This document shows positions 23,272-36,373 of a stretch of DNA of 64,000 bases, piece by piece. Numbering within the stretch: the first letter of the stretch is position 1; the number at the start of each line of letters is the position of its first letter. The stretch lies in NCBI GenBank assembly GCA_965262915.1, contig OZ253564.1, forward strand, positions 736,001 to 800,000. The letters are read 5' to 3'. This DNA is from Candidatus Spongiisociaceae bacterium. Its GTDB lineage: Bacteria; Actinomycetota; Acidimicrobiia; Spongiisociales; Spongiisociaceae. The position numbers were made by a program, and so were the translations under genes. The notes beneath the pieces are model-generated. The model did not search any database and was not told where the DNA came from. It saw only the letters and a program-made list of their open reading frames with translations.

Positions 23272-23746
23272 CCAACCCTGGCCACGCACCGTTGACCAAC
23301 TGTGACCTAACCGTTCACTGACTGTGCCTAAGCGCCGCCGTTGACCGGTACTCCCGGTATCCGGGACCACCCCATAGCAGGTACCGGACCCTCCAAGTCG
23401 CGAAAATCGCCCCGGCGCCGCTGACCCTGACGGGCCCTCCCTCCCCCGCCGCCACCACCTGAGACGGACCGGGCGAACGCGGGGCCGGAGCGTGGGCTCC
23501 GCAGCTCTCCGAGTATGCCCGGACCTTCCGGTCACCGTCTGCCTGAGGGCGGGCAAGGCCCATCGGCTCGGAGACCGGAACTCCGTTGATGATCGCCGCT
23601 TCCGGACCTGCGGCGATGTTTGTGCTCACGACACCTTCAATATGCCTGATGGCTGTGACAGTGACAACCCCCACGTTCCCTGGCCCGCGGGGGATTCGCC
23701 GCGCGGCAGTCATGCCGGGCGATCCCGCCTACCGGAGAGACCGCTG

Positions 23747-24040
23747 TCAGGCGATGCGGGTCATCCGCTTGATGACGACGCTTTCCAAGCGGTCCTCGAT
23801 GGCGGCGAGACCGTCCGCGATGTGGGGCTCGGCGAGGTGGGCATCGAGATCGGCTTCCCTCCGCCAGAGAGCCACGAAATAGAAGACGGTGGGATCGTCG
23901 TTGACCGCATGCAGCCGGTAGTCGAGGCAACCCTCCTCCTCACGGGTGGGCACCACCATGGCCATGAGGGCTTCGCGAACGGTCGCCTCCGATCCGGGCA
24001 CGACCCTTACCTGGGCGACGGCGGTGAGAGGCTCGGTCAT
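23747..24040 (-). CDS. Putative quinol monooxygenase (ABM domain)
   Basis: PTREEEGCLDYRLH..W...ADLDAHL. Confidence 0.9.
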   Translation of the reverse strand: MTEPLTAVAQVRVVPGSEATVREALMAMVVPTREEEGCLDYRLHAVNDDPTVFYFVALWRREADLDAHLAEPHIADGLAAIEDRLESVVIKRMTRIA

Positions 24041-24073
24041 GGGCGCAACTCTACCGCCCTGAGCAAACCGCTC

Positions 24074-24367
24074 TCAGGCGATGCGGGTCATCCTCTTGAT
24101 GTCGATACCCTCGATCCGATCCTCGACGCGGGCGATTGCGTCACGGACGTGGGCCGATTCCAGGTGGATGTCCAGATCCTCCCCGCTCCGCCACTGCTCC
24201 ACGAAGTAGAACAGCCCCGGGTCGTCATCGACCACATGCAGCTTGTACTCGATGCAGCCCTCCTCGTTGAGGGTGGGCGGGACGATGGCCGCCAACGCGT
24301 CGCGCACAGCGTCCTCCGCCCCCGGCGCGGCCCGGATCCAGGCAACAACGGTTAGTACGTCGGTCAT
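24074..24367 (-). CDS. Putative quinol monooxygenase (ABM domain), tandem paralog
   Basis: PTLNEEGCIEYKLH..EQWRSGEDLDIHL. Same IKRMTRIA tail as its neighbour. Confidence 0.9.
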   Translation of the reverse strand: MTDVLTVVAWIRAAPGAEDAVRDALAAIVPPTLNEEGCIEYKLHVVDDDPGLFYFVEQWRSGEDLDIHLESAHVRDAIARVEDRIEGIDIKRMTRIA

Positions 24368-24972
24368 GGGCGTAACTGTAGTGGCCCGAGGCGAAGCCGG
24401 TACCGCTTCGGCGTAAGTAGGCCGTACGTGAAACCCGGCCCAACAGGGCCGGGTGGGTAAACGTTCTCGGCGCTCTAGCACCGAGAACTAGCGCTTCCTC
24501 ATCCGCTAGCAGGTTGCCCATCCAGTGGCTGGATCTGCGGGTCGATCACCAACCGACCGGGTGCCGGGATTCCCCAGCAGCTTTGGGGAACTGAAGAACC
24601 CGACAATCCGTTCGCCGGCTGAAACAACCAGACCCGGGAGAACCAGCCACCAACACCGTGGGCCGAGCGGTCTCAGAACCACCGCCCAGCACGAACCGGC
24701 TACGACCATCACGATTCTCACCCCACCGTTTACGGCCGCTTGTGGACGCGTTCTCCTGTTATGCGAGGTAGATAGCGGTTTGTGAGGAAGCTAATCTTGG
24801 CCGGTGTCACTACAAGTGTCCTAGCGGTCAGCTTTACTATGCGTGCTCGGCTCAGATGTAATACGGTGATGGACGCCGCGCTGTTAGATCCTGGTCGGTG
24901 GCCACGAGCTTCGAGCGCTGAGATCGATTCCTGCAACCCGGTTAACACAGCCGGACAGGGCAGGTGTCCAGC

Positions 24973-25160
24973 CTATGGGGGAACTCCATCTTCGGGCGGG
25001 CGGTCATCTGGCCACCGAGAGCAGCCCGTGCGGCGGCTTCGGCGTCTACGGTGTCGGTCTTGCCCCGGAGGCGGCGTAGCTGGGCGGTTTGGGCGCATGA
25101 CCTCTACCACCTCGACACCGGCTGCGCTCAGATGACGAGCCAGGCTGGCAGCGCAGTCAA
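24973..25160 (-). pseudogene. IS110 transposase remnant
   Basis: LARHLSAAGVEVVEVMRPNR, then in a shifted frame GKTDTVDAEAAAR. Confidence 0.7.
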
Positions 25161-25364
25161 AGTCTGCGCTGCGGCGTCGACCGCGATGTAGTAACGCCGG
25201 AATGCTGCCCGGCCCCCCCGGCCGGGGTTCCCGAATGGGTCGCGACGGCGAGATGTACACGGCTGCTCACAAGTCAGGAAGGAGACGGACCGCGCCGGTG
25301 CTGGTTGGGGCTAGCAACCGCGTCGTACGGGGTGGTATTGTTCATGTATAGGGAGGATGATGTG

Positions 25365-25604
25365 ATGGGTACCGAGCTAGTTGGTCGAGAAACACCCTCT
25401 CCTGTTGTGACGATGTCCGAGGTTCAGGCGTGGTCGGCTCAAGGCAGGCGTAGACTCGCGGAGCGCGGTATCTACACCAGGGATCTCGGGAAACGGCTTC
25501 AGTGGAAACGCACCCGCGGGATCGATACATCCGCCGAAGAACGGTTCGTACGCTATCTTGATTCGGTTAGTGACGAAACAGGCGTAGCCGAACCTAGCGA
25601 TTGA
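25365..25604 (+). CDS. Small hypothetical protein, possible antitoxin partner
   Basis: GGAGG RBS. Its stop overlaps the start of the downstream nucleotidyltransferase-like gene. Confidence 0.5.
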   Translation: MGTELVGRETPSPVVTMSEVQAWSAQGRRRLAERGIYTRDLGKRLQWKRTRGIDTSAEERFVRYLDSVSDETGVAEPSD

Positions 25605-26184
25605 AGAGCCGCACAACCGCGCGGGACCTGCTGCTAAGGGCCGGCGGGGTATCACCTGGTAGCTTAGAGTACATAGCGCTCTACGCGGCAGCATTCGATA
25701 GCCTAACCGACTCCCCACTCGTACTAGTCGGTGGCGCGGCGCAGCCTCCCTTTATACCGGTATCGAGCGCCTTACCGATATAGATATGGTGGGGTGGGTC
25801 ACCCCGACGGACGCCGCAGCACTGGCATCTGCTGGATTCACGCGGGAGGGACGCCACTGGGTTTATGGAGAAACGACTCCAGAACTCCTAGTAGAAGTAC
25901 CAGAGACGACCCTGTTGGGCCACGATGAGCCCCTGTTATTCCGAACACCGTCCGGTGTAACCGTACGGGTCATCTCGCTTGACGACCTCATGCTGGACCG
26001 CCTCATGCAAGCCACAGATGGGACAGTCGTTACTTGGGAGGAAGCCCTATCGCTTGGTATAGCAGCGAAACACCGCATTAACTGGACGGTGCTACAAGCT
26101 AGATGCGACGCAGCGGCAGACGAAGACGCGTTCCTTCAGAGATTACCTGACGTGTTGAACCGGATCATCGATGACGTAGGCTAG
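25601..26184 (+). pseudogene. Nucleotidyltransferase-like protein (DUF6036-like), frameshifted at ~25745
   Basis: Joined frames read LVLVGGAA..LYTG...TDIDMVG..GFTREGRHW..VISLDDLMLDRL (GG...DxD signature). Confidence 0.6.
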
Positions 26185-27499
26185 CGTCGCTGTGGGGTCC
26201 AGACCTCTCCCGTATTCGTAGGCATCCGACCGCCCAGCGCAGCGTTCGGAGTCCTGGATAGGAGACTTCTCAGACAGCACCATCATCGCCGCGATGGTGC
26301 ACCGGCTCGTTCGCAGAAGCGTCGTGTTTACCACTGCGGCAACCCATACCTGGGCTTCGAGCTTGCCCGCTCGAAGGACCCTGGTCCGGGAAGCTGTGGG
26401 TTACCAGTCGTCCCCGGCGATGCATGACCGAGCAATTTCCGGCGGGGGTGTGCCGGAGTCGGGAAAACGGTCCGTAGGGATGGTATGCAGCTCGCACACC
26501 CCGACCTCGATGCTCGCCAACGTGGTGGCGTGCTCGGGGGCAGCCGGTCGGTGACCTCCCGCGCCGGGCGCGTCCCATAAGGCCCGGTCGTCCATTCCCA
26601 GGCACGTCAATGAAGCGTCATCGTGTACGTGCCGGGTTCCTTGTAGATGACCGCGCAGTCGTCGTCCTGGGGGTACACGGCATCCTCCTTGGCATGCACG
26701 ACAGGTCGGGAGTCCACGAAACGGATACCGGGCGCGGACACGCCCTTGTTTCCCACCCAACCCCGGTCGAGGCTCGCCTCCGCCGCCGCTATGTCGGCGT
26801 CCTCGGTCCAACAGGTGTGGGTGCTGCCGTTGCCGAGGTCGATCTCCATCCTGTCGACGGGAACAGCACGATGGCGGGCTCCCTGGCGGACGACCTTGTC
26901 CTCAAGCGGCGCGTCCACGGTCGGCCAGATAATGGGATACGTGACGGGATGGGATACGTGACGGGACTCCCAACAGGTTCGGCACCTTCCACGGTTTCGG
27001 CCTGACAGCCCGCCCAACTAGCGGACGGGAAGGGCGACTTGCCGGGTAGGCACAAATCTGGAATGTTCAGCAACCACACATATGTCGGGGCTCCGACCCA
27101 CAGGTACTCGCGTGGGGGATTCGTGCCGATGACCGGATCGAACGTCAACCAGTTCGGACCGGGTACATCCGGTGCCGGTCCCCGAGCGTACCAGCGGGCA
27201 CCTAGACCTATGCCCTAACCCGACGGGTTGTCCAGGTCGCCCTGATAGCTGAGGTCTCCGAGATGCGCGTCACTGATCGGCCCGGCAGCCGTAACAGACG
27301 CGGCCGTCACCGGCGAGTTCGATCGGTTCTGGCAGGCGGGTCATCAGGTCCTTGTTCCACCGTGCCATGTCACACGCTCCTTCGGTTAGAGCAAAGGGGT
27401 TGACCCGCTAGCAGCTGGGAATCGGTGTGAAGCCGAGCCCGGTGAACTGCCGGAGGTGTCATTCGTCGGGTGGTTTCGGGCCGGTTTTGAGGGCTACGA

Positions 27500-27870
27500 G
27501 ACCGAAGCGGCATCCCTTTGACGAGCTGTTGGGCTCCGACGCCTCGAACTTGTGCTGCTTGACATCGATCAGGTCCAACCGTCCCGACCAGCACTGCTGC
27601 GTTCTGCCCGCCGGGCCCGGGTCGTGGGTGTTCGGGGCAAGGGAAGAACCCAGCGCACAGTGTTCCTGTCCGTCGACGCCCGCCGTGCCCTGGCCGGCTA
27701 CCTGGAGGTGGAACGACCGTTCGACGCCACCGACGAGTCCACCGCGTTGTTCCTGTCCGCTGTTTCGGTGAGCAGCCGCCCCCCGACGGGCGGCTCTCCG
27801 GGCGCAGTGTCAACACCGTCCTCGAACGTATCGGCCGGCTCCACGACGCGGAACACACCGAACCCGTACG
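27500..27870 (+). pseudogene. Tyrosine recombinase remnant
   Basis: ELVLLDIDQV, VRGKGRTQRTVFL, ALFLS and, in a shifted frame, GRLSGRSVNTVL. Confidence 0.7.
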
Positions 27871-27872
27871 GT

Positions 27873-29033
27873 TCAACCTACGCGTGGTGGAGGGAACACA
27901 ACCCGGAAGCTGGGCAGTTCCCCGCGGATCGGAACCTGTCCCGTTATGACCTGTTCAAGATGTTCACCCTGGTCCGGAGCGAGGATCCCCGCTGGGCGGC
28001 GGTGGACACCAGGGTGGGCCGGGGTGTCATCTGTCGTTTCGACCGGACGACCAAGTCTTTTTACAAGCGCTGCAGCAGGGAAGGGACCAAGCCCGGATAT
28101 CCCCGTTTCAAGCCCCGACACCGGTGGAGGAGCATCGAGATAGTGAACGCCGGGGCCCAGATGCTCGTACCGCCGGGTCCCGGGGGTCGATGGTGGCGTC
28201 TGCGGGTCAAGGGAGTCCCCGCAGCCAGGTTCTGCGATGGCAACGGACGGCTGGCCGCCGCTCTCGATGCTGGCACGGTGGTGGAGCTGTGGGTGGTGCG
28301 CACCCCGTTGCGGGTGGAGTTGCATGTGGTGGTCGGACACGACGCGGATACCACTGTGGTGTCCGCTCCTCTGAACCCGGTGGGGATAGACAAGGGCCTG
28401 TCGACGCGGATGGCACTGTCCGACGGGCGGTACGTACCGGCGCGGACCATCGACAATCAGGTTGTCCGCCGGTACCAGCGTCGCCTGGCGCGAGCACAAC
28501 GGGGATCTCGGTCCCGGGCCAAGAAGCGGGCTGCTGTGGCCAGGGTCCGGCGCAGGGAAACCGAGAGAGCCCGGGCGGCGGACTTCCGCCTGGCCCACGA
28601 CCTCGTTACTTCCTTCGACGGCGTCGCCGTCGAGGACCTCAACATCGCGGGACTGCTCCGCTCCCGCAGATACTCCAAGAAGATGTCGGAACAGCGGTGG
28701 GGTACCTTCGACCTCGTACTGGGACACAAAGCCGAGAAAGCTGGTGTCCCGTATGTGAAGGTGAGCCCTTCCCATACCAGCACAGATTGCTCCCGATGCG
28801 GGCATCGCCAGCCGATGCCGCTCGGAACCAGAGTCTATCGGTGCGGGAGTTGCCGTCTCAGCCTGTGCAGGGACGTCAACGCCGCCAGGAACATATGCGC
28901 CCGGGCCTTCCCACAGGTCCGGGGTCGGGAGGGGCCACCACCTGACGCGGCGCGCTATACAAACAACCACCGTGAGACCGACTCGCCCCCTAGGGCAGGG
29001 ACGCAAGTGGTCGCCGCAGAACAGTATGCCTGA
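27873..29033 (+). CDS. tnpB: TnpB RNA-guided endonuclease (IS200/IS605-type), N-terminus missing
   Basis: PGYPRFK, VGIDKG (RuvC-I), VAVEDL (RuvC-II), TSTDCSRCG..CGSC zinc finger, RDVNAARNI (RuvC-III). Confidence 0.88.
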   Translation, partial: STYAWWREHNPEAGQFPADRNLSRYDLFKMFTLVRSEDPRWAAVDTRVGRGVICRFDRTTKSFYKRCSREGTKPGYPRFKPRHRWRSIEIVNAGAQMLVPPGPGGRWWRLRVKGVPAARFCDGNGRLAAALDAGTVVELWVVRTPLRVELHVVVGHDADTTVVSAPLNPVGIDKGLSTRMALSDGRYVPARTIDNQVVRRYQRRLARAQRGSRSRAKKRAAVARVRRRETERARAADFRLAHDLVTSFDGVAVEDLNIAGLLRSRRYSKKMSEQRWGTFDLVLGHKAEKAGVPYVKVSPSHTSTDCSRCGHRQPMPLGTRVYRCGSCRLSLCRDVNAARNICARAFPQVRGREGPPPDAARYTNNHRETDSPPRAGTQVVAAEQYA

Positions 29034-29494
29034 GCAGCCTGCATGGGCACTCAGTATAAAGGTCCCCTCGGCGTTTCACGCAGTTGCCCTCATTCCGTAG
29101 GAGTTGCATTGTCCCAGGTCACGGCGCTTTTGGCGGAATCTGGAGTGTCATGTTGTTTCAGTGGTGGTCGCGGAGTTGCAGTCGAAAAGGTATACCATTT
29201 GTGACACCAGTTGAAGGCGTGGGGCTGAGGGTCAACTGTCCCTTGGTGGGTCACCCTGGCGTTTCCCGTAGGAATGCTGCGGTTGTCCCAGCTTTGGCAG
29301 TCTTGGCTCGACCCGCCGGGTGGAGGCCCGCACCGTCACACACCTGTATTTGCTCGCCATGGTCTGACCATTGGATGGTACTGCCGAACTGCCTGCGACA
29401 TGAGATGCTTCCACGGTGGGCGGTCTCGGCCCGGTTGTTGCTGCGAGTTTGCTCGCTTCAACACGGTGCTGTCGGCTGCTGTGTGATATCCAGG

Positions 29495-30575
29495 TTATGG
29501 CAGGGGTGTGGAGTCGTCCTGCAGATACGTTGCCCATGCTGCCATGAGTTGGCGGCGTCGGTCGAATAGATCTGTGCGTAGGTATGCGGCTTCGACCTGG
29601 TTGCGGTTCTGGTGGGCCAGTGCAGCCTCGGCGACTGATCTGGGTGTGTCTGTGCATTCCTCTACCCAGACGCGAAAACTCGAACGGAAGCCGTGGGGCA
29701 CGCAGGAGATCCCGAGCCGGTGGAGTATTGCCCCGACGGTACTCTTGCCGATCTGACCGCCGCGCGCGCCTGGGAAGATCAGCCCGCTGCTGTTTCGGTA
29801 CTGGTGAGCTTCGTGCAGGATTGCAATGGCGCGTGTCGCCAGTGGCACACGGTGTTCCCGGCTCTTTTTCGTCCTCTTGGCCGGAATCGTCCAAGTCGCC
29901 TTCTCGAAGTCTATTTCGAGCCATTGCGCGAGCCTGGCTTCTGTGGGTCTCGTTGCGGTGAGTATCTGGTATTCGAGTAGCAGGATGCTGGTCGGGTAGG
30001 CACTCGACCAGCGTACCTGCTGGAGGGCTGCCGCGACCTGATCATGGGGCAGCGCCGGGTGATGCCGAGACCCACTGCTGTGCTTGGGCAGCGCGGCGGT
30101 GATGGCCTCCCCGGCCGGGTTGTCGGGCCGATGCCCCGCGGCTATCGCCCACAGCATTATCGCCGAGATTTCCCGTTTCACTGTCTGAGCAGTGGGGTTC
30201 TTTTCGTGCCATATTGGAGTTAGGAGGCCCATGACGTCAGCGGTGGTGATTCGGTCTACCCGTTTGCTGCCCAGCGTCGGGTACGCGTAGTTCTTGAGGG
30301 TGGATCTCCACCTGTGTTCCGTCTTGCTACCGGGTTTCCAGCCTTTGGAGTACAGCTGGATAACTTTCTCGGCCGCCTCAGCGAAGGTCGGCACCCCGCC
30401 GCCCCGGGGATCTTGTCCCTGTTCTGCCAGCCGACGATTGTTGAATGCCTTTCGTCGGGCTTCGGAGAGTTTGACCAATGGATAGCTTCCGAGGCCGATG
30501 TTGGTGAGGCGGCCGCCAATCCGGATTCGCTGAATCCACGACTTTCGTACTCCAACGTTTCGCCCATTAGCGTGC
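29495..30575 (-). CDS. P4-like tyrosine integrase with a degraded arm-binding N-terminus
   Basis: KSWIQR..GLGSYP.VKLSEAR, LTATRPTE, HGFRSSFR, LAH, AY.R catalytic motifs. Confidence 0.88.
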
Positions 30576-33387
30576 CCGACCTACTGTGCGTATCCGATAG
30601 AGAGTGCCCGCCCCTAGGCATATTCTACCCGAAAGGACGCTGCTGTGTAGCGTTCCTGCCATGCGTTGAACTCGACGACCTGCACGCAGAAGCGGGTACG
30701 TCAGGTACGGGGTTAAGCCTGGCAGAAGACATCGGCGTTGGTAACTCCCCTCGTCGCGACTGGGCTGTGCGAGACTACTGGATGTCGTCTGGAGACGAGG
30801 GTCAGGCCCGGCTAAGCCGTTCGATTCTCAGTCAGCGAGAAGAGGAGACAGATTCCGGCTGAGGAGGTGACAGACTCCCGGGACCCCTACCATTACCCCT
30901 GGTCAGGGGTGGTCGCGAAGACCCCGCCCTCGACGCGGTGCTGTTCCTAGCCCACCGCAGGTCGATGGTCGACATCATCCAGGCCGTCGGACGGGTCATG
31001 CGAACCGCCGCGGGGAAAGAACGCGGTTACATCATCCTGCCCGAAGGGAAAACCCGTATCGACGACGCCGTTCTGCGCAGCCCAAGGTTCAAGCCGGTCT
31101 GGGACGTGATCCGGGCGTTACGAGCCCACGACAAACGGATGGACGTGTGCGTCAACACCGCCGACAAAGGCGGCAAACCACCCATAAACGTTATAGGCGG
31201 CGCCGACGGCGACGACACCGACAACACGGATGACGGTAGGGGGTTGGACACTGCCACCGTTGTGCAGATGACCCTCCCCATGAACTCCGAAATCGCGTCG
31301 GCGCTGGTCGAAATCTGCGGGGACCGCACGTATTGGGCGACTTGGGGAGACGACGTAGGAGAAGTCACCCGAACCGTCTCAGCCCGCATCAGCCGACTCA
31401 TCGGATCCCGGCCGCACACTGCGGAAGCGTTCGGACGGTTCCTCACAGAGATGCGTCAGACGATCAACGAACACCTACAAGAAGCCGACCTCGTCGACAT
31501 GTTGGCCTGCCACATAGTCACGCTGCCCGTGTTCAACGCCCTGTTCGGCTCCGCCGCGTTCGCTTCCCTCAACCCGGTTGTTGCTGCGTTGAACCAGATG
31601 GTGGACACGCTGGACCGGGACCACATCCGAGCCGACACCGCCCGCCTCGACCGCCTATACGACAGCGTGACCGAACGGGTCCGCCAGGTCACCGACCCCG
31701 AAGGCCGCCTCAAAATCCTGCTCGAACTGTACGAATCGTTCTTCGCGAAAGGCATGAAACGGGAAACCGACCGGCTCGGCGTCGCCTACACCCCCATCGA
31801 GCTGGTGGACTATGTTCTCCGATCAGCCGACCGGCTCTCCCAGCACCACTTCGGCAAGGGCCTATCAGACCCCGACGTTCATGTGTTGGACCCGTTCACC
31901 GGAACCGGCACCTTCATCAACCGGCTACTCACCATCAACGACAGCAACGGCCGGCCGCTTATCACAGACGAAGACCTGGACCGCAAATACACAGCCGAGA
32001 TACACGCCAACGAAATGCTGCTGTTGGCCTACTCCATCGCCGCCGTCAAAATCGAAGAAGGACGGCGCCAACGCCGACCCACAGCGACTACCAGCCATTC
32101 GCAGGCATCGTCCTGTGCGACACGTTCAACAGCCAACCCGACCAGCAACAGCTCGACACCCTGTCAGGCAACAGCCGACGGGCCGAACAACAAGCCGGCC
32201 AACGCATCGACGTCATAGTCGGGAACCCGCCCTGGTCCGCAGGACAGAGAACCGCCGCCGAGGACAACCCCAACATCGTGTACCCACAACTGCGGGAACG
32301 CATCCGCGAACCCTACGCGGCGCGCAGCACCGTTACGTTGAAGGCGGCCTTGTACGATTCGTACAAGCTGGCGATCCGGTGGGCCACCGACCGCATCGGC
32401 GACCAAGGCATCGTCGCGTTCGTCACCCCCAACTCGGTGCTCGACGGCAACGCCGAATCCGGGCTCAGAGCCTGCCTAGCCGACGAATACCACAGCCTGT
32501 ACCTACTCAACCTACGCGGCGACGCCCGCCTCTCCGGCGAAGCCAGGAGGCGGGAAAAGGGCAACGTCTTCGGCAGCAGCACGAGGGTGGGCATACTCGT
32601 ATCCGTACTGGTCAAACACCCCCACCAGCCACATCCCGACCGCCAGACCCGCATCTGGTACCACAACATCGGCGACTACCTCACCACAGACCAGAAAAAA
32701 CAGGCCCTCCAAGACATGGGGCATGCGCCGACGAGCGGCGACGGGGAAGGCTGGCAACGGATCAAACCCGACAGCAACCACGACTGGATCAACCAATCCG
32801 ACCCCACCTGGCAACACCTAATGCCCCTCGGGGACAAGACCACCAAACAGGCAGCCCTGCGCGGGTCGGCTGGATCGGGCGCTGACTCCCCGACTGTGTT
32901 CCACATCTACTCGTCCGGCCTCAAGACCAATCGCGACCCATATGTGTACGACTACGACAAGGACGGTCTGGAAGAACGGGCCGAAGCAATGGTCGACGAA
33001 TACGAACACCAACGCGACCGTGTGAGCACCGGGGAGGCGACGGTCGACCAAGCCACCCGAAACGTCAGACCACATGTCATCAAATGGACGGGTGACCTGC
33101 GACCACGGCTACGACGCGGCCTGCGCGCCACCTACGACGAACGGAACATTCGGGAAGTCCACTACCGGCCGTTCACCAAGATGTGGCTCTACTACGAACC
33201 GCTGTTCCTCAACAGGGTCTACCGCATCCCCATCATGTTCCCTCACCGTCCCGACGGCGCGAACCAGGCGATAGTCGTAGCGGGGAGGGGATCGACCCGT
33301 GAGTTCTCGACGGTGGTGACGGACACAGCACCGGACCTGGAGCTGGTGTCCAAAGGTCAGGTGATGCCAAGAACCACCCATCATAAT

Positions 33388-33439
33388 CCGACCGACCGAC
33401 CGACCGACCGACCGACCGACCGACCGACCGACCGACCGA
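33388..33439 (+). repeat. (CCGA)13 simple sequence repeat inside the type ISP TRD
   Basis: 52 nt, 13 perfect units. Confidence 0.97.
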
Positions 33440-33569
33440 TCAGGTCATCTACATCACCGGGCCGGGAGCATCGGTCGGGTTCTCAACACTCGTCAGCGAC
33501 TGTCCCCCGGACCTGCATCTGCTGTCAGGCGGACAAGCGTTCCCCCGATACACCCACCCGACCGGATGA
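33438..33569 (+). other. Alternative TRD cassette 2
   Basis: DQVIYITGPGASVGFSTLVSDCPPDLHLLSGGQAFPRYTHPTG*, paralogous to the in-frame segment at 33262-33378. Confidence 0.85.
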
Positions 33570-33709
33570 ATCAGGTGATCAGCATGACCGGACCAGGCTG
33601 GAAAGGCCCCTTCTCGACGCTGATAAGCGACATCCCTCCGGACATCCAGTTCATGGGCAACGGTCAGGCGTTCCCCCGGTACACGTATCCGAAGGAGACC
33701 AGCCGATGA
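33566..33709 (+). CDS. Alternative TRD cassette 3 (47-aa mini-ORF)
   Basis: MNQVISMTGPGWKGPFSTLISDIPPDIQFMGNGQAFPRYTYPKETSR*, with ATGA overlaps at both ends. Confidence 0.8.
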   Translation: MNQVISMTGPGWKGPFSTLISDIPPDIQFMGNGQAFPRYTYPKETSR

Positions 33710-34684
33710 CCGCCGGCACTACTCCGATGCTGGACTTGGGGGACCTAGACCCCACCGGCGACCGGCCCGACGACCAAGGCCGGGTGGACAACATCACCGA
33801 CTGGTGCCTCAACCAGTTCCGCAGCCGCTACCAGGACCCTGCCATCACCAAAGACCACATCTGGGCATACATATACGGAGTGATGCACGCCCCCGACTGG
33901 CGAACCAGATACGCGAACGATCTACGCAAAGGTCTACCCCGCATCCCCTACACCGACGACTTCTGGCCGTTCGCCCAGGCGGGCCGGGAGCTGATCGACC
34001 TACACGTCGGCTACGAAACCTGCGAACCGTATCCGCATGTGCGAGTGCTGGTAGACGGGCAGGCGGCCGACCCGGACCGTGACAGCCCCGACGTGTACCG
34101 TATCGATAAGCCGATACGCTGGGCCAGAACCCGCGGCGAAGACAGGAAACTCGCCAACGACCTGAGCGTGCTCGTGGTCAACGACCGGTGCCGAATCGAA
34201 GACATCCCCCCGGAAGCGCACGAGTATGTGGTCAACGGGAAAACCCCCCGCTCGGCTGGGCCATCGACCGTCTACGGGCTACCCGTGACAAAACGAGCGG
34301 GATCACCCGCGACCCGAACCGGTGGCACACCTGGGCAGACCGGCCCTACAACCTGATCGAACACCTATGTAGGCTGATCACCGTGTCCGTCCGCACCGTC
34401 CGCATCGTCGACGGGTTGCCCCCCTCGCTGCCCCCAGACGACCCACGCCCCGCCGGCTGACCTATCGGAGAGGCCGGCTGGCGTAAGGTAGCTGGGTTGA
34501 CCCTGGTCCGCTGCCCAACCACACCCCACCGGTTCTCCCGGGAGAATCCACCACGACAACAACCCAACTGGCGCGCCGCTGATCCAAGTGAGCTGACTCC
34601 AAAAAAACCGGTCACCATCAACCGCCCCGCTTCAAGTCACGCGTATAATTCCCTTTGGATTGTGTTGACTCAGGGGATTAAGTT

Positions 34685-36373
34685 ATGAGACGGTTGGCGC
34701 TACTGGTCGCATGGGTGCTGGTGCTCGGAACAGTCGCGTCGGGAGCGTTACCGTCCACGCCACCCGCGGTGGCGCAGGAGACAACCGGGCCGCCGGAAAT
34801 ATGCGACACAGCCGCGGTGGAACAATTCACCGACGTCGCCGACGGTGAATACGCGTCCGCCTACGTGCTGTGCATGCGCTCTCTGGGCCTCTCGGTGGGA
34901 AGAGGAGCAGGAACCTACGGTCCTGACAGCCAACTCAACCGCGGGCAGATGGCATCATTTCTGGTGCGGCTGTGGCGTGACGTGCTGGGCAACCAATGTC
35001 CCACCGGAGTAGTCACGCCGTTCACCGACGTGCTCGACGACTCCACGCATACCAAGAACATCGAATGCATCTACGGACTGGAGATCACCACCGGCACCGG
35101 CCCCGACACCTACGGCCCCAGGGACCCGCTGAAGGCAACCCAGATCTCCCGATTCCTGTACCGCGTCTACAACAAAGCCGGCGGCGACATGTGCCCGAGC
35201 GCAGACGGGTCGGAACTCCACCGGGCCGCAGAGTGCCTGCTCCAACTCCGGGTCGTGCCCACCACCGGCGAAGCCACCGCCACCACCACCGTCACCCGAG
35301 CACAAATGGCCGTCTACATGGTAGGGCTATGGCACAACCTCTCAGGCAAAGGCCTACCACCCCCACCCCCACCCCTAGGCACCCCCACACCTGAGGCGAC
35401 CACCACCACTACTACCCAACCCACCCACACCGCACCCACCACCCAACGCATCGCCTACACGGTCAACAGATCCACAGCACTTGATCGCGTGCGGGGAGTC
35501 ACGACCACTGACGTCTGGGTTATGAACGCCGACGGAACCGACCAGAAACAACTCACCGACAACGGCTGGGGTCCGGTGTGGTCACCTGACGGAACCCGAA
35601 TCGCCTACACCGGCAGGCGCCTGACGGGCTCCAGAATCAGACCAAACCAGATCAATGAGGTCTGGGTTATGAACGCGGACGGAACCGACCAGAAACAACT
35701 CACCGACAACGGCTGGGGTCCGGTGTGGTCACCTGACGGAACCCGAATCGCCTACACAGTCGGACTCCGCGGAATCTTACGCGGAGTCCGGGTTATGAAC
35801 GCGGACGGAACCGACCAGAAACAACTCACCGACAACGGCATGAGTCCGGTGTGGTCACCTGACGGAACCCGAATCGCCTACGTAGCCCTCGGCCCGGACA
35901 CCGGAGTCCCGACCACTGAGGTCTGGGTTATGGACGCCGACGGAACCGACCAGAAACAACTCACCATCGGCGAGATCTCGGGGTCGTTTCTTCTGTCGTG
36001 GTCGCCTGATGGAACCCGAATCGCCTACCCAGGGGCAAACGGAGTCTGGGTCATGAACGCGGACGGAACCGACCAGAAACAACTCACCGACAACGGCTGG
36101 CGTCCGGTGTGGTCACCTGATGGAACCCGAATCGCCTACTCTAGGGCAAACGGAGTCTGGGTTATGAACGCGGACGGAACCGACCAGAAACAACTCACCG
36201 ACATCGGCCAGAGTCCGGTGTGGTCACCTGACTCTGGCCGAATCGCCTACTCTGGGAGCGGAGTCTGGGTCATGAACGCGGACGGAACCGACCGGAAACT
36301 GCTCTACTACAACCGCACCGCCGGGGATGGCGCGGGTCCGGTGTGGTCGCCCGTGGTCGTGCCGGAGGGTTAA
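34685..36373 (+). CDS. SLH-domain protein with TolB-like (PD40) beta-propeller
   Basis: Signal peptide. SLH region paralogous to 3397..4857. Repeats VWVMNADGTDQKQLT..PVWSPDGTRIAY. Confidence 0.92.
   Translation: MRRLALLVAWVLVLGTVASGALPSTPPAVAQETTGPPEICDTAAVEQFTDVADGEYASAYVLCMRSLGLSVGRGAGTYGPDSQLNRGQMASFLVRLWRDVLGNQCPTGVVTPFTDVLDDSTHTKNIECIYGLEITTGTGPDTYGPRDPLKATQISRFLYRVYNKAGGDMCPSADGSELHRAAECLLQLRVVPTTGEATATTTVTRAQMAVYMVGLWHNLSGKGLPPPPPPLGTPTPEATTTTTTQPTHTAPTTQRIAYTVNRSTALDRVRGVTTTDVWVMNADGTDQKQLTDNGWGPVWSPDGTRIAYTGRRLTGSRIRPNQINEVWVMNADGTDQKQLTDNGWGPVWSPDGTRIAYTVGLRGILRGVRVMNADGTDQKQLTDNGMSPVWSPDGTRIAYVALGPDTGVPTTEVWVMDADGTDQKQLTIGEISGSFLLSWSPDGTRIAYPGANGVWVMNADGTDQKQLTDNGWRPVWSPDGTRIAYSRANGVWVMNADGTDQKQLTDIGQSPVWSPDSGRIAYSGSGVWVMNADGTDRKLLYYNRTAGDGAGPVWSPVVVPEG

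What the first reader, a model, noticed from the sequence alone, without database searches (positions are those of the whole stretch)
33560..33712. ATGA-coupled chain: cassette 2, cassette 3 mini-ORF, then a free C-terminal domain
Seen: the cassette 2 stop overlaps an ATG (33566) that starts cassette 3. The cassette 3 stop overlaps an ATG (33706, preceded by AAGGAG) that starts the type ISP C-terminal domain. Two exact ATGA overlaps suggest selection. Inference: when the tract shifts frame, the C-terminal domain and possibly a 47-aa specificity peptide are still made as separate chains. That would be a split type ISP enzyme with exchangeable recognition modules.
Basis: partly seen in the sequence, partly recalled or inferred. 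Interest (0 to 1): 0.75.

Follow-up and report, generated by a model that had tools for sequence, protein, structure and literature searches.

The report
Repeat-switched split restriction enzyme, dead copy
The two overlapping stop/start signals are real and sit in a decayed copy of a restriction enzyme gene whose relatives appear to use slippery DNA repeats to choose between alternative DNA-reading modules, while the enzyme's last domain is made as a separate protein.

Summary
Both ATGA overlaps exist as described (33566-33569, 33706-33709; AAGGAG at 33692-33697). They lie in a Type ISP restriction-modification gene. Its target-recognition domain carries three about 42-aa cassettes in three frames, behind a (CCGA)13 tract. 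The window's own copy is dead: it lacks the 5' part and has two frameshifts.

The design is widespread in related, sponge- and coral-associated Acidimicrobiia. In 63 loci, n repeat tracts give 2n+1 reading outcomes, and 346 of 367 simulated outcomes stop right after a complete cassette. Cassettes evolve under purifying selection in their own frames. By alignment to LlaGI and LlaBIII, a cassette is the beta-hairpin plus base-reading Loop VI. The residue that reads target position +3 is E, H or Q in cassettes 1, 2 and 3.

The C-terminal "guide" half is a free-standing gene in many relatives: 163 such ORFs start at the homologous Met. The last-cassette stop overlaps that start ([AG]TGA) in 21 of 33 loci with the window's gene order.

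The first ATGA, and so the 47-aa mini-ORF, occurs only in the closest clade (4 of 4). It is absent in 3 of 3 more distant arrays of the same type.

Verdict: observation confirmed, interpretation partly supported. This looks like an undescribed variant of phase-variable restriction-modification. Switching and specificity change remain inferred.

The parts
30916..34460 (+). Remnant of a Type ISP restriction-modification gene: end of the helicase, coupler, N6-adenine methyltransferase and target-recognition domain. Likeness to the relatives starts at about 30916. The gene is read in three frames because of two frameshifts.
   Evidence: Pfam ISP_coupler 3.9e-35, Eco57I, Type_ISP_C 6.9e-78. tblastn against the intact 1744-aa frame of G006 covers residues 592-1744 only, in three frames. 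The N-terminal 591 aa were not found anywhere in the genome. The breakpoint is seen in the alignment.
32082..32083 (+). One base missing relative to G005, G006 and G017. It shifts the methyltransferase from frame 2 to frame 1, between the FxGxG and NPPW motifs.
33262..33387 (+). Cassette 1 (frame 1, in frame with the gene body). It holds the beta-hairpin and Loop VI equivalent. The residue at the LlaGI H1368 position is Glu.
   Evidence: Cassette profile hit; alignment to LlaGI; dN/dS 0.06 against G017.
33388..33439 (+). (CCGA)13 tract, read as PTDR repeats. It sets the frame for everything downstream.
   Evidence: Tandem Repeats Finder: 13.0 copies, 100% matches. G005 has 14 units and G006 has 21. 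The same place holds (GCAGAGGG)3 in G017 and (TC)26 in G042. Contigs from other samples span it with 20 or 21 fewer letters.
33438..33569 (+). Cassette 2 with its TGA stop (frame 0). His at the LlaGI H1368 position.
   Evidence: Pfam 3.9e-07. Own-frame Sd 11.5, Nd 2.5 against G017; in the read-through frame Sd 2.5, Nd 11.5. Alignment to LlaGI.
33566..33709 (+). Cassette 3 as a 47-aa ORF (frame 2), from the first ATGA to the second. Gln at the H1368 / N1360 position. The same frame is also open upstream back to the tract.
   Evidence: Pfam 4.2e-06. Alignment to LlaGI and LlaBIII. Own-frame Sd 3, Nd 2 against G017 and Sd 4, Nd 0 against G005.
33692..33697 (+). AAGGAG, a likely ribosome-binding site 8 nt before ATG 33706.
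   Evidence: Kept in G005, G006 and G042; lost through a 3-nt deletion in G017.
33706..34356 (+). C-terminal half ORF as it stands (216 aa, frame 1). It corresponds to the last core helices plus the 'guide' subdomain. Two extra C near 34245 derail its last part; the true continuation is 34248-34460 in frame 0.
   Evidence: Pfam Type_ISP_C positions 163-304, 2.8e-42. Its start is homologous to the start of the free-standing ORFs. Frameshift seen.

Best explanation
The window holds a decayed copy of a repeat-switched, split-capable Type ISP restriction-modification gene. In the working design, seen intact in relatives, the large protein carries nuclease, helicase, coupler, methyltransferase and the first part of the target-recognition domain. 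It runs into a hypermutable repeat tract. Behind the tract lie alternative cassettes of about 40 aa, each in a different reading frame and each followed at once by a stop. Each cassette encodes the beta-hairpin and the base-reading Loop VI of the recognition core. Gain or loss of repeat units, probably by replication slippage, decides which cassette ends the large protein. Cassettes read in the wrong frame serve only as a stop-free linker. The rest of the recognition domain (last core helices plus the 'guide' subdomain) is a separate polypeptide that docks onto the large protein. In this lineage one tract gives three states. State 1 reads on, so cassette 1 is joined to the C-terminal half through misread cassettes 2 and 3; this is the state in the window, G006 and L040. 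State 2 stops after cassette 2 (G005). State 3 stops after cassette 3 (L043). In the two stopped states the C-terminal half starts at ATG 33706, coupled to the cassette-3 stop by the ATGA overlap and helped by AAGGAG. The ATGA at 33566 may relay ribosomes from the cassette-2 stop through the cassette-3 mini-ORF, but this is a recent, clade-specific feature and probably not essential. Shown here: the anatomy, its conservation, the 2n+1 outcome rule, own-frame purifying selection, tract-length differences between genomes, and homology of the cassette to Loop VI. Inferred: heritable switching within a population, a change of DNA specificity, reinitiation at the overlaps, and assembly of the two chains. 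In this genome the gene is dead and nothing functional is expected.
For: Anatomy and frames.

Same design in close relatives, with a different repeat at the same place: (CCGA)13/14/21, (GCAGAGGG)3 and (TC)26.

Own-frame selection against G017: cassette 2 has Sd 11.5, Nd 2.5 (dN/dS 0.06) in its own frame, but 2.5/11.5 and 1/13 in the other two frames. Six downstream cassettes of three orthologous arrays have pN/pS 0.21-0.38 in their own frame and 1.07-2.24 in the other frames.

Family-wide design. 13 arrays of 5-7 cassettes with 2-3 tracts. Arrays are present in nearly all of 79 further loci. Of 62 distinct natural large-ORF ends, 56 end in a cassette by the profile. Of the other six, three run into the C-terminal half (L036, L040 and the canonical L042), two more (L034, L107) end in a cassette after a long misread stretch, and one is cut by a nonsense codon. 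Simulating all frame states of 63 loci gave 367 outcomes: 346 cassette-ended, 7 fused, 14 other. Outcomes numbered 3 in 11 of 14 one-tract loci, 5 in 27 of 27 two-tract loci and 7 in 19 of 20 three-tract loci.

Free C-terminal half. 163 ORFs of about 225-290 aa at E<=1e-5 among 508 candidates. They start 'MT..LDLG' at the position of ATG 33706. Ten loci have a two-gene arrangement.

Overlap. [AG]TGA occurs at the last-cassette / C-half junction in 21 of 33 same-order loci, 18 of them ATGA.

Intact examples of two states in the same c1-tract-c2-c3 architecture: fused in G006 (1730 aa) and L040 (1710 aa), split after cassette 3 in L043 (1477 aa plus a GTGA-overlapped C-half).

Loop VI mapping. 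My alignment reproduces LlaGI H1368, G1372 and Q1373, and LlaBIII N1360, which PMC4872093 names as the readers of position +3 (sections 15, 16 and 18 read). The column after the invariant 'DL' is variable among 310 distinct cassettes: H129, C66, A54, S24, K13, N13, E5.

Predicted complex of the G005 large-chain end with its C-terminal half: ipSAE 0.83, 0.84 and 0.83; best of 3 controls 0.00; partner pLDDT at least 83; runs agree in at least 73% of contacts. The mark was reached by 116 of 157 solved complexes and 2 of 215 mismatched pairs. My own alignments were used, so the counts hold only roughly. Fused homologues are solved, so the pass may reflect likeness only.
Against: The window's copy cannot work. 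The 5' part is missing and was not found elsewhere in the genome. There are frameshifts at about 32082 and about 34245. G005 (in-frame stop, frameshift) and G017 (TGG to TGA) are also broken.

There is no evidence of switching within one population. All runs were assembled contigs, which break at the tract or give one length each. There are no methylation or expression data.

Cassette 1 lies before the tract and is always read, so the stopped states carry two cassettes. The predicted interface used cassette 1 (residues 182-218), not cassette 2 (237-279). My alignment was biased that way.

The first ATGA is absent in L039, L040 and L043. AAGGAG is lost in G017. In multi-cassette loci of the same gene order the ORF often stops 120-600 nt before the C-half start, so stop-start coupling cannot be the only way the C-half is made.

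Loci are related to each other, so the counts overstate independence.
Confidence: 0.7

Rival explanations
1. Simple on/off switch with silent cassettes. Only the read-on (fused) frame with cassette 1 gives an active enzyme. The two other frames are off states. Cassettes 2 and 3 are kept as donors for recombination into the expressed position rather than being read directly.
For: Cassette 1 is constant and under strong selection. G006 shows a 131-nt recombination between cassettes 2 and 3 at an identical 17-nt stretch. The predicted interface uses cassette 1. The canonical single-cassette paralogue in G005 has a plain C13 tract after its cassette, which is an on/off layout.
Against: Many arrays have no constant cassette before the first tract, so a downstream cassette must be read directly (L027, L030, L033, L053). 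A stop follows every cassette, and every frame path leads to a cassette. Recombination between direct repeats deletes and cannot switch back. L043 is an intact gene resting in the cassette-3 state.
Confidence: 0.15
2. Cassette choice does not change the DNA target. Instead it tunes assembly with the guide subunit, for example which of several paralogous C-terminal halves is bound, or enzyme activity or stability.
For: Genomes hold several paralogous systems and several free C-half genes. In the predicted complex the cassette region contacts the C-terminal half.
Against: The cassette covers Loop VI. The most variable columns are those aligned to the base-reading residues, whereas the flanks 'F', 'DL' and 'R..PR' are invariant (PMC4872093 sections 16 and 18).
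Confidence: 0.08
3. Decay junk. The cassettes are degenerate tandem duplications in a dying gene, the open frames come from high G+C, and the ATGA overlaps are chance.
For: The window's copy and two of three close relatives are pseudogenes. An ATGA at a TGA stop is a 1-in-5 event. At 63% G+C, a stop-free stretch of about 88 codons has a probability of roughly 0.08 (my estimate from base composition).
Against: Own-frame purifying selection. The 2n+1 rule holds in 57 of 61 loci with one to three tracts. Three different repeat types occupy the same site. Intact genes exist with the same layout.
Confidence: 0.04
4. The frames are mixed in one cell by transcriptional or translational slippage on the tracts, not by heritable changes in tract length. 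One genotype would then make several enzyme forms at once.
For: Many arrays use runs of 9-20 G or C, or long (GA)n. Such runs are known to cause polymerase slippage (general knowledge, recalled). A preprint reports frameshift suppression at an (AG)n tract of a Type III mod gene (10.64898/2026.04.01.715767, abstract and outline seen).
Against: Tract lengths do differ heritably between genomes. A tetranucleotide tract like the window's is a poor substrate for RNA slippage (recalled). Several specificities at once would risk self-restriction.
Confidence: 0.1

Closest known systems
LlaGI / LlaBIII, the prototype Type ISP enzymes (PDB 5ffj, 4xqk; PMC4872093)
   Same: Same domain order in the intact relative G006: Mrr nuclease, SF2 helicase, coupler, gamma-class N6-adenine methyltransferase, Type_ISP_C recognition domain. 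The cassette aligns to the hairpin 1347-1358 plus Loop VI 1365-1374. The C-terminal ORF aligns to the core helices plus the guide subdomain.
   Different: The prototypes are single polypeptides with one Loop VI region and no repeat tract. Here there are 2-7 alternative copies in different frames behind repeat tracts, and the guide half is often a separate gene, placed upstream, divergent or downstream.
Phase-variable Type III mod and Type I hsdM/hsdS genes with simple sequence repeats ('phasevarions'; PMC5909438 and PMC7383803, search listings and abstract starts only)
   Same: A repeat tract inside a restriction-modification reading frame, with a unit length that is not a multiple of three, and tract length varying between strains.
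   Different: Those switches turn a gene on or off, or truncate it. Here each frame leads to a different, complete, selected module, giving 2n+1 outcomes for n tracts.
Type I hsdS shufflons that switch specificity by recombination between duplicated hsdS genes (PMC7394358, search listing and abstract start only)
   Same: Several pre-encoded alternative recognition modules at one locus, of which one is expressed at a time.
   Different: The switch there is site-specific or homologous recombination between inverted repeats and swaps whole recognition domains. Here it would be repeat slippage and frame choice, and only a 40-aa sub-element of the domain is swapped.
NgoAV-type hsdS with a poly-G tract, and the G tract in Streptomyces pglX
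   Same: A homopolymer in a specificity or methyltransferase gene changes what is made. PglX shares the C-terminal fold family.
   Different: Those have two states only and no arrays of alternative modules.
DrdV / MmeI-type Type IIL enzymes (PDB 7lo5)
   Same: Best sequence match among solved structures for the recognition domain (6.5e-49). The cassette aligns to DrdV 777-818.
   Different: No helicase or Mrr nuclease, a single chain, and no cassette array.

Membership tests
Type ISP restriction-modification enzyme (LlaGI/LlaBIII family) | N-terminal Mrr-type nuclease | tested here: not met
   Absent from the window's copy: likeness to the relatives starts at residue 592 of the G006 frame, and the first 591 aa were not found in the genome. 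Present in the intact relative G006 (Mrr_cat_2, 8e-18).
Type ISP restriction-modification enzyme (LlaGI/LlaBIII family) | SF2 helicase-like ATPase | tested here: not met
   Only the last helicase motif region survives in the window. ResIII and Helicase_C are present in G006 and in the large ORF of L027.
Type ISP restriction-modification enzyme (LlaGI/LlaBIII family) | Coupler domain | tested here: met
   PF22240 ISP_coupler, 3.9e-35, over its full length.
Type ISP restriction-modification enzyme (LlaGI/LlaBIII family) | Gamma-class N6-adenine methyltransferase with intact frame | tested here: not met
   The DPFTGTGTF and NPPW motifs are present but lie in different frames, because one base is missing at about 32082. 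The Eco57I profile hit is 1e-06.
Type ISP restriction-modification enzyme (LlaGI/LlaBIII family) | C-terminal Type_ISP_C recognition domain | tested here: met
   PF18135, 6.9e-78, in two stretches, plus two extra partial copies covering positions 99-157.
Type ISP restriction-modification enzyme (LlaGI/LlaBIII family) | All functions in one polypeptide | tested here: inconclusive
   Fused in G006 and L040. Split in L043 and in all two-gene loci. The window is in the fused frame at the tract but broken elsewhere.
Repeat-mediated phase-variable (contingency) locus | Repeat tract inside the reading frame, unit not a multiple of three | tested here: met
   (CCGA)13 at 33388-33439.
Repeat-mediated phase-variable (contingency) locus | Tract length differs between related genomes or samples | tested here: met
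   13, 14 and 21 units in three genomes. Contigs from two other samples are 20 and 21 letters shorter across the region.
Repeat-mediated phase-variable (contingency) locus | Tract length varies within one population, with a change of phenotype | not testable with these tools
   Only assembled contigs were on hand. The source-like run breaks at the tract.
Translationally coupled gene pair (stop-start overlap) | Stop of the upstream frame overlaps the start of the downstream frame | tested here: met
   Both ATGA overlaps are present.
Translationally coupled gene pair (stop-start overlap) | Overlap conserved in homologues | tested here: inconclusive
   Second overlap: 5 of 5 close loci and 21 of 33 distant same-order loci. 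First overlap: 4 of 4 close loci, 0 of 3 distant arrays of the same cassette types.
Translationally coupled gene pair (stop-start overlap) | Reinitiation actually occurs | not testable with these tools
   No ribosome profiling or proteomics was on hand.

The most novel reading that the evidence does not exclude
A frame-multiplexed decision tree for DNA specificity. In sponge- and coral-associated Acidimicrobiia, n hypermutable repeat tracts at the 3' end of a Type ISP gene select one of 2n+1 pre-encoded Loop VI cassettes packed in overlapping frames. One gene can then cycle through 3, 5 or 7 recognition sequences without any recombinase. The invariant guide half of the recognition domain is supplied as a separate subunit. 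The window's lineage is the three-state form, in which the third state fuses the guide back on, and the ATGA at 33706 is the hand-over point between the two chains.
Probability: 0.5. Interest if true: 0.9.

Novelty: new variant of a known kind. Interest (0 to 1): 0.8.

Why it matters
Phase-variable restriction-modification is known in two forms. Repeat tracts turn a gene on or off, and recombinases shuffle whole specificity domains. The evidence here points to a third form. Repeat tracts choose between several complete, selected copies of one base-reading loop, written in overlapping frames with a strict 2n+1 logic.

If cassette choice changes the target at position +3, several things follow:
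- A naturally modular Type ISP enzyme would be available for engineering specificity, which PMC4872093 calls an unaccomplished challenge (abstract seen).
- A single-polypeptide enzyme class would be shown to work as two chains.
- It would help explain how uncultured sponge symbionts vary their phage defence.

It also warns annotators that the many short 'hypothetical' ORFs and 'frameshifted' Type ISP genes in these genomes may be working parts rather than debris. For the window itself the gene is a dead copy.

Tried and rejected
1. AlphaFold2 of the fused recognition domain of G006 (539 aa, mixed alignment A4). The C-terminal half reached pLDDT above 90, but the N-terminal core and cassette 1 stayed below 50. 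It says nothing on where cassette 1 sits. No fold search was run on it.

2. The predicted complex does not tell which cassette docks. My alignment A2 laid the relatives' single cassettes on cassette 1.

3. Laying public runs to see tract heterogeneity. All four runs were assembled contigs. The source-like run X1 has no contig across 33382-33446, which shows nothing about variation in the population.

4. Earlier notes of this scan: nothing near the place, and four unrelated hits by words.

5. Promoter scan of 32800-34800: 0 promoter-like sites. This is uninformative for an actinobacterium.

6. I looked for an ATG/GTG relay at cassette-to-cassette junctions in other arrays. The stop usually lies inside the next cassette's head ('ATC NTG ATC'), 10-13 nt after that head begins, so no separate start is possible there. 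I rejected the idea that a chain of coupled mini-ORFs is a general feature.

7. An even sample of 200 genomes of the class found Type_ISP_C in only 5 besides the window's genome. The class at large gives no extra arrays.

8. Literature searches: 'Type ISP' with 'phase variation'; 'Type ISP' with sponge and symbiont; Acidimicrobiia, sponge, restriction-modification and homopolymer; phase-variable, target recognition domain, simple sequence repeat, frameshift and specificity; and the candidate family names. None of the listed titles or abstract starts describes repeat-switched cassette arrays or split Type ISP enzymes. The library lacks most subscription journals, so this is not proof of absence.

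9. My first cassette profile missed the divergent first cassettes whose G tract lies inside Loop VI. Some outcomes counted as 'other' are such cassettes by eye.
Full report
THE OBSERVATION

One search shows both overlaps. At 33566-33569, TGA 33567-33569 closes frame 0 after '...FPRYTHPTG' (cassette 2), and ATG 33566 opens a 47-aa ORF in frame 2 (cassette 3). At 33706-33709, TGA 33707-33709 closes that ORF, and ATG 33706 opens a 216-aa ORF in frame 1. AAGGAG lies at 33692-33697, 8 nt upstream of that ATG. Nothing like a ribosome-binding site precedes ATG 33566.

A (CCGA)13 tract lies at 33388-33439. A third cassette, cassette 1, lies just before it in frame 1.

Pfam places cassettes 2 and 3 on positions about 112-157 of the Type ISP C-terminal specificity domain, and the 216-aa ORF on positions 163-304. 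Taken alone the overlaps are weak evidence. In the window 169 of 843 TGA triplets are preceded by A.

WHAT THE GENE IS, AND ITS STATE IN THIS GENOME

The surrounding gene is a Type ISP restriction-modification gene, with coupler, methyltransferase and Type_ISP_C hits. A relative of the same genus, G006, has an intact 1730-aa ORF with Mrr nuclease, ResIII/Helicase_C, coupler, methyltransferase and Type_ISP_C.

Against that frame the window's copy covers only residues 592-1744, in three frames:
- Likeness to the relatives begins abruptly near 30916.
- One base is missing at about 32082, inside the methyltransferase.
- Two extra C at about 34245 derail the end of the C-terminal ORF.

The missing 591 residues were not found anywhere in the 5.06-Mb genome, and this is the genome's only Type_ISP_C locus. 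An integrase gene (29495-30478, minus strand) and a TnpB gene (27552-29030) lie next to the truncation. So the window's copy is a dead remnant. With 13 units, frame 1 runs from the gene body through cassette 1, the tract and the misread cassettes 2 and 3 into the C-terminal half without a stop. This is the fused state, not a split one.

CLOSE RELATIVES

Four other loci share the layout:
- G005 has 14 units. The gene body runs into cassette 2 and stops.
- G006 has 21 units and a 131-nt deletion that joins cassettes 2 and 3 at an identical 17-nt stretch. The two changes together keep the fused frame.
- G017, of another genus, has (GCAGAGGG)3 at the same place. It is in the fused frame but carries a TGG-to-TGA change upstream.
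- G042's contig starts inside a (TC)26 tract at the same place.

Three unrelated repeat types at one site argue that a frame-shifting tract is selected there. Contigs from two other samples span the region with 20 and 21 fewer letters.

Against G017, substitutions in cassette 2 are synonymous in its own frame (Sd 11.5, Nd 2.5; dN/dS 0.06). That matches cassette 1 (12 and 3). In the read-through frame they are not synonymous (2.5 and 11.5). Cassette 3 gives 3 and 2 against G017, and 4 and 0 against G005. The cassettes have therefore been selected as read in their own frames.

THE FAMILY-WIDE DESIGN

A search with the C-terminal half found 163 proteins of 137-438 aa (E<=1e-5, among 508 candidates). 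Most are 225-290 aa and carry Type_ISP_C only. In an alignment of 29 of them, the N-termini ('MT..LDLG') fall at the position of ATG 33706.

In the window's own family, 19 of 29 genomes have Type_ISP_C matches. Many of these are split into a first and a second half a few kb apart. Mapping ten such loci showed a two-gene form. The C-terminal half is an ORF directly upstream of, or divergent from, a large ORF. The large ORF holds everything else and ends after the cassette.

The 3' ends of these large ORFs carry arrays of 5-7 cassettes in different frames. Each cassette is followed by a stop. The cassettes are separated by runs of 9-18 G or C, or by (GA)n. A scan of one genome per species gave 79 more loci. 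All come from Acidimicrobiia metagenome-assembled genomes, with record titles such as Candidatus Spongiisociaceae, Aldehydirespiratoraceae, Poriferisocius and Poriferisodalis. Nearly all have arrays of 2-7 cassettes with tracts, including tetranucleotide tracts. Many have the window's gene order: body, array, C-terminal half.

Of 62 distinct natural large-ORF ends, the results were as follows:
- 56 end in a cassette by profile search: 48 with one in-frame cassette, 8 with two.
- 3 run into the C-terminal half (L036, L040 and the canonical L042).
- 2 more end in a cassette after a long misread stretch.
- 1 is cut by a nonsense codon.

I simulated every frame state at every tract of 63 distinct loci. 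This gave 367 distinct outcomes: 346 stop right after a cassette, 7 fuse to the C-terminal half, and 14 are other. At least four of the 'other' outcomes are divergent first cassettes that the profile missed. The number of outcomes follows 2n+1: 3 in 11 of 14 one-tract loci, 5 in 27 of 27 two-tract loci, and 7 in 19 of 20 three-tract loci.

In three orthologous seven-cassette arrays, all six downstream cassettes have pN/pS of 0.21-0.38 in their own frame and 1.07-2.24 in the other frames. This is a designed decision tree, not debris. The window's lineage is its one-tract form, with outcomes cassette 2, cassette 3 or read-on.

WHAT A CASSETTE IS

The recognition domain matches DrdV, LlaGI and LlaBIII among solved structures. 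The LlaGI construct lacks residues 2-165 (PMC4872093, section 13), so chain index plus 164 gives residue numbers. The cassette then covers LlaGI 1342-1381.

The paper (sections 15, 16 and 18 read; passages) describes these elements:
- a beta-hairpin at 1347-1358;
- Loop VI at 1365-1374, one of three base-reading elements of the recognition domain;
- H1368, G1372 and Q1373 (LlaGI) and N1360 (LlaBIII), which read target position +3;
- a 'guide' subdomain at 1440-1578 that does not read bases.

My alignments land exactly on these residues. Cassette 2 has His and cassette 3 has Gln opposite H1368 / N1360. Cassette 1 has Glu. Among 310 distinct cassettes the flanks (F, DL, R..PR) are nearly invariant, while this column and the next five vary. 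The C-terminal ORF corresponds to the last core helices plus the guide. So 'exchangeable recognition modules' is a fair reading. The likely effect is a change of the base read at +3. This is inference from homology, not measurement.

THE TWO OVERLAPS

In one search, 79 loci were examined. Three lacked the motif I used as an anchor, 36 had no cassette within 400 nt upstream, and 40 had one. Of those 40:
- 1 is a canonical single-cassette gene.
- 6 have the stop at least 131 nt before the start.
- 33 have the window's gene order with a close junction.

In 21 of those 33 the last cassette's stop overlaps the C-half start: 18 ATGA and 3 GTGA. In the other 12 the start lies between -14 and +24 nt of the stop. 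The flanking sequences differ widely. ATGA outnumbers GTGA although GTGA is commoner in the background (290 against 169). The second overlap is therefore a conserved hand-over point, consistent with termination-reinitiation. However, in multi-cassette loci the large ORF often stops far upstream, so the C-terminal half must also be able to start on its own.

The first overlap is different. In other arrays the stop of one cassette lies inside the head of the next, so no separate start is possible. In L039, L040 and L043 the cassette-2 frame runs on for 17-40 codons and cassette 3 has no start codon, although these loci share the window's cassette 1 - tract - cassette 2 - cassette 3 layout. The 47-aa mini-ORF is thus confined to the closest clade. 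It may relay ribosomes to ATG 33706 when cassette 2 is in frame. A free 'specificity peptide' has no support.

CAN THE SPLIT FORM WORK?

Intact genes exist in two states of this very architecture. G006 (1730 aa) and L040 (1710 aa) are fused. L043 has a 1477-aa ORF ending in cassette 3, with a GTGA-overlapped C-half ORF.

A predicted complex of G005's large-chain end (core, cassette 1, PTDR repeats, cassette 2) with its C-terminal half scored ipSAE 0.83, 0.84 and 0.83. The best of three controls scored 0.00. Partner pLDDT was at least 83, and the runs agreed in at least 73% of contacts. The mark was reached by 116 of 157 solved complexes and 2 of 215 mismatches. My own alignments were used, so the counts hold only roughly. 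These are two halves of a domain whose fused relatives are solved, so the pass may only reflect that likeness. The confident interface used cassette 1, not cassette 2, and my alignment was biased that way. How two in-frame cassettes are resolved is open. 8 of 62 natural ends have two.

WHAT IS NOT SHOWN

The following were not shown: switching within a population, any methylation motif, any expression, reinitiation at either ATG, or activity of any copy. The loci are related, so counts are not independent events.

Five literature searches turned up no description of such arrays or of split Type ISP enzymes among the listed titles and abstract starts. The nearest item is a preprint on frameshift suppression at an (AG)n tract of a Type III mod gene (abstract and outline seen).

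VERDICT

The window's copy is a dead member of what appears to be an undescribed, repeat-switched and split-capable variant of Type ISP restriction-modification.

Noticed in passing
window 27552-30478: A TnpB/IS605 OrfB-type gene (27552-29030, plus strand) and a tyrosine integrase gene (29495-30478, minus strand) lie directly upstream of the point where the Type ISP gene loses likeness to its relatives (about 30916). A mobile element probably removed the 5' part.
   Followed up: partly
L022 (G014), L023 and L024 (G018): Other large genes with Eco57I/MmeI-type methyltransferase domains carry very long tetranucleotide tracts after the methyltransferase: (CCGA)44, (GTCC)7 followed by (GACC)19, and (ACCA)44. 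Repeat tracts in restriction-modification genes seem to be a habit of this bacterial family.
   Followed up: partly
L020 / L042 (G005 paralogue): A canonical fused Type ISP gene with a single cassette has a C11-C13 run in the linker right after the cassette. This would be a plain on/off switch at the same junction.
   Followed up: partly
L028 7007-7290 (G006) and L102: Four extra cassette fragments lie beside a free C-terminal-half gene that is divergent from its large ORF. In G005 (L033) and G006 (L028) the C-half gene points away from the large gene, unlike the co-directional loci. I did not test whether this reflects inversion.
   Followed up: no
L031 1-55 (G042 contig start): The contig begins inside a (TC)26 tract just before cassette 2. 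Assemblies break at these tracts, as the source-like run's contigs do at 33382-33446 of the window.
   Followed up: partly
window 33782-33843: Summed contig depth jumps about 40-fold (to about 290) in two runs over the stretch that encodes the conserved 'DNITDWCL' motif. Many paralogues or other organisms in the samples share it.
   Followed up: no
window 34685-36370: The gene downstream of the remnant encodes a 562-aa protein with an S-layer homology domain and PD40/DPPIV-type beta-propeller repeats. It is unrelated to the restriction gene.
   Followed up: no
window 24355-27370: About 3 kb without any ORF of 150 aa or more on either strand. No Rfam family reached its gathering score in 23500-31000.
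   Followed up: partly
L029 (G009), 18 kb: Three Type ISP large genes in tandem, each with its own 5-6 cassette array. Free C-terminal-half genes lie between them.
   Followed up: partly
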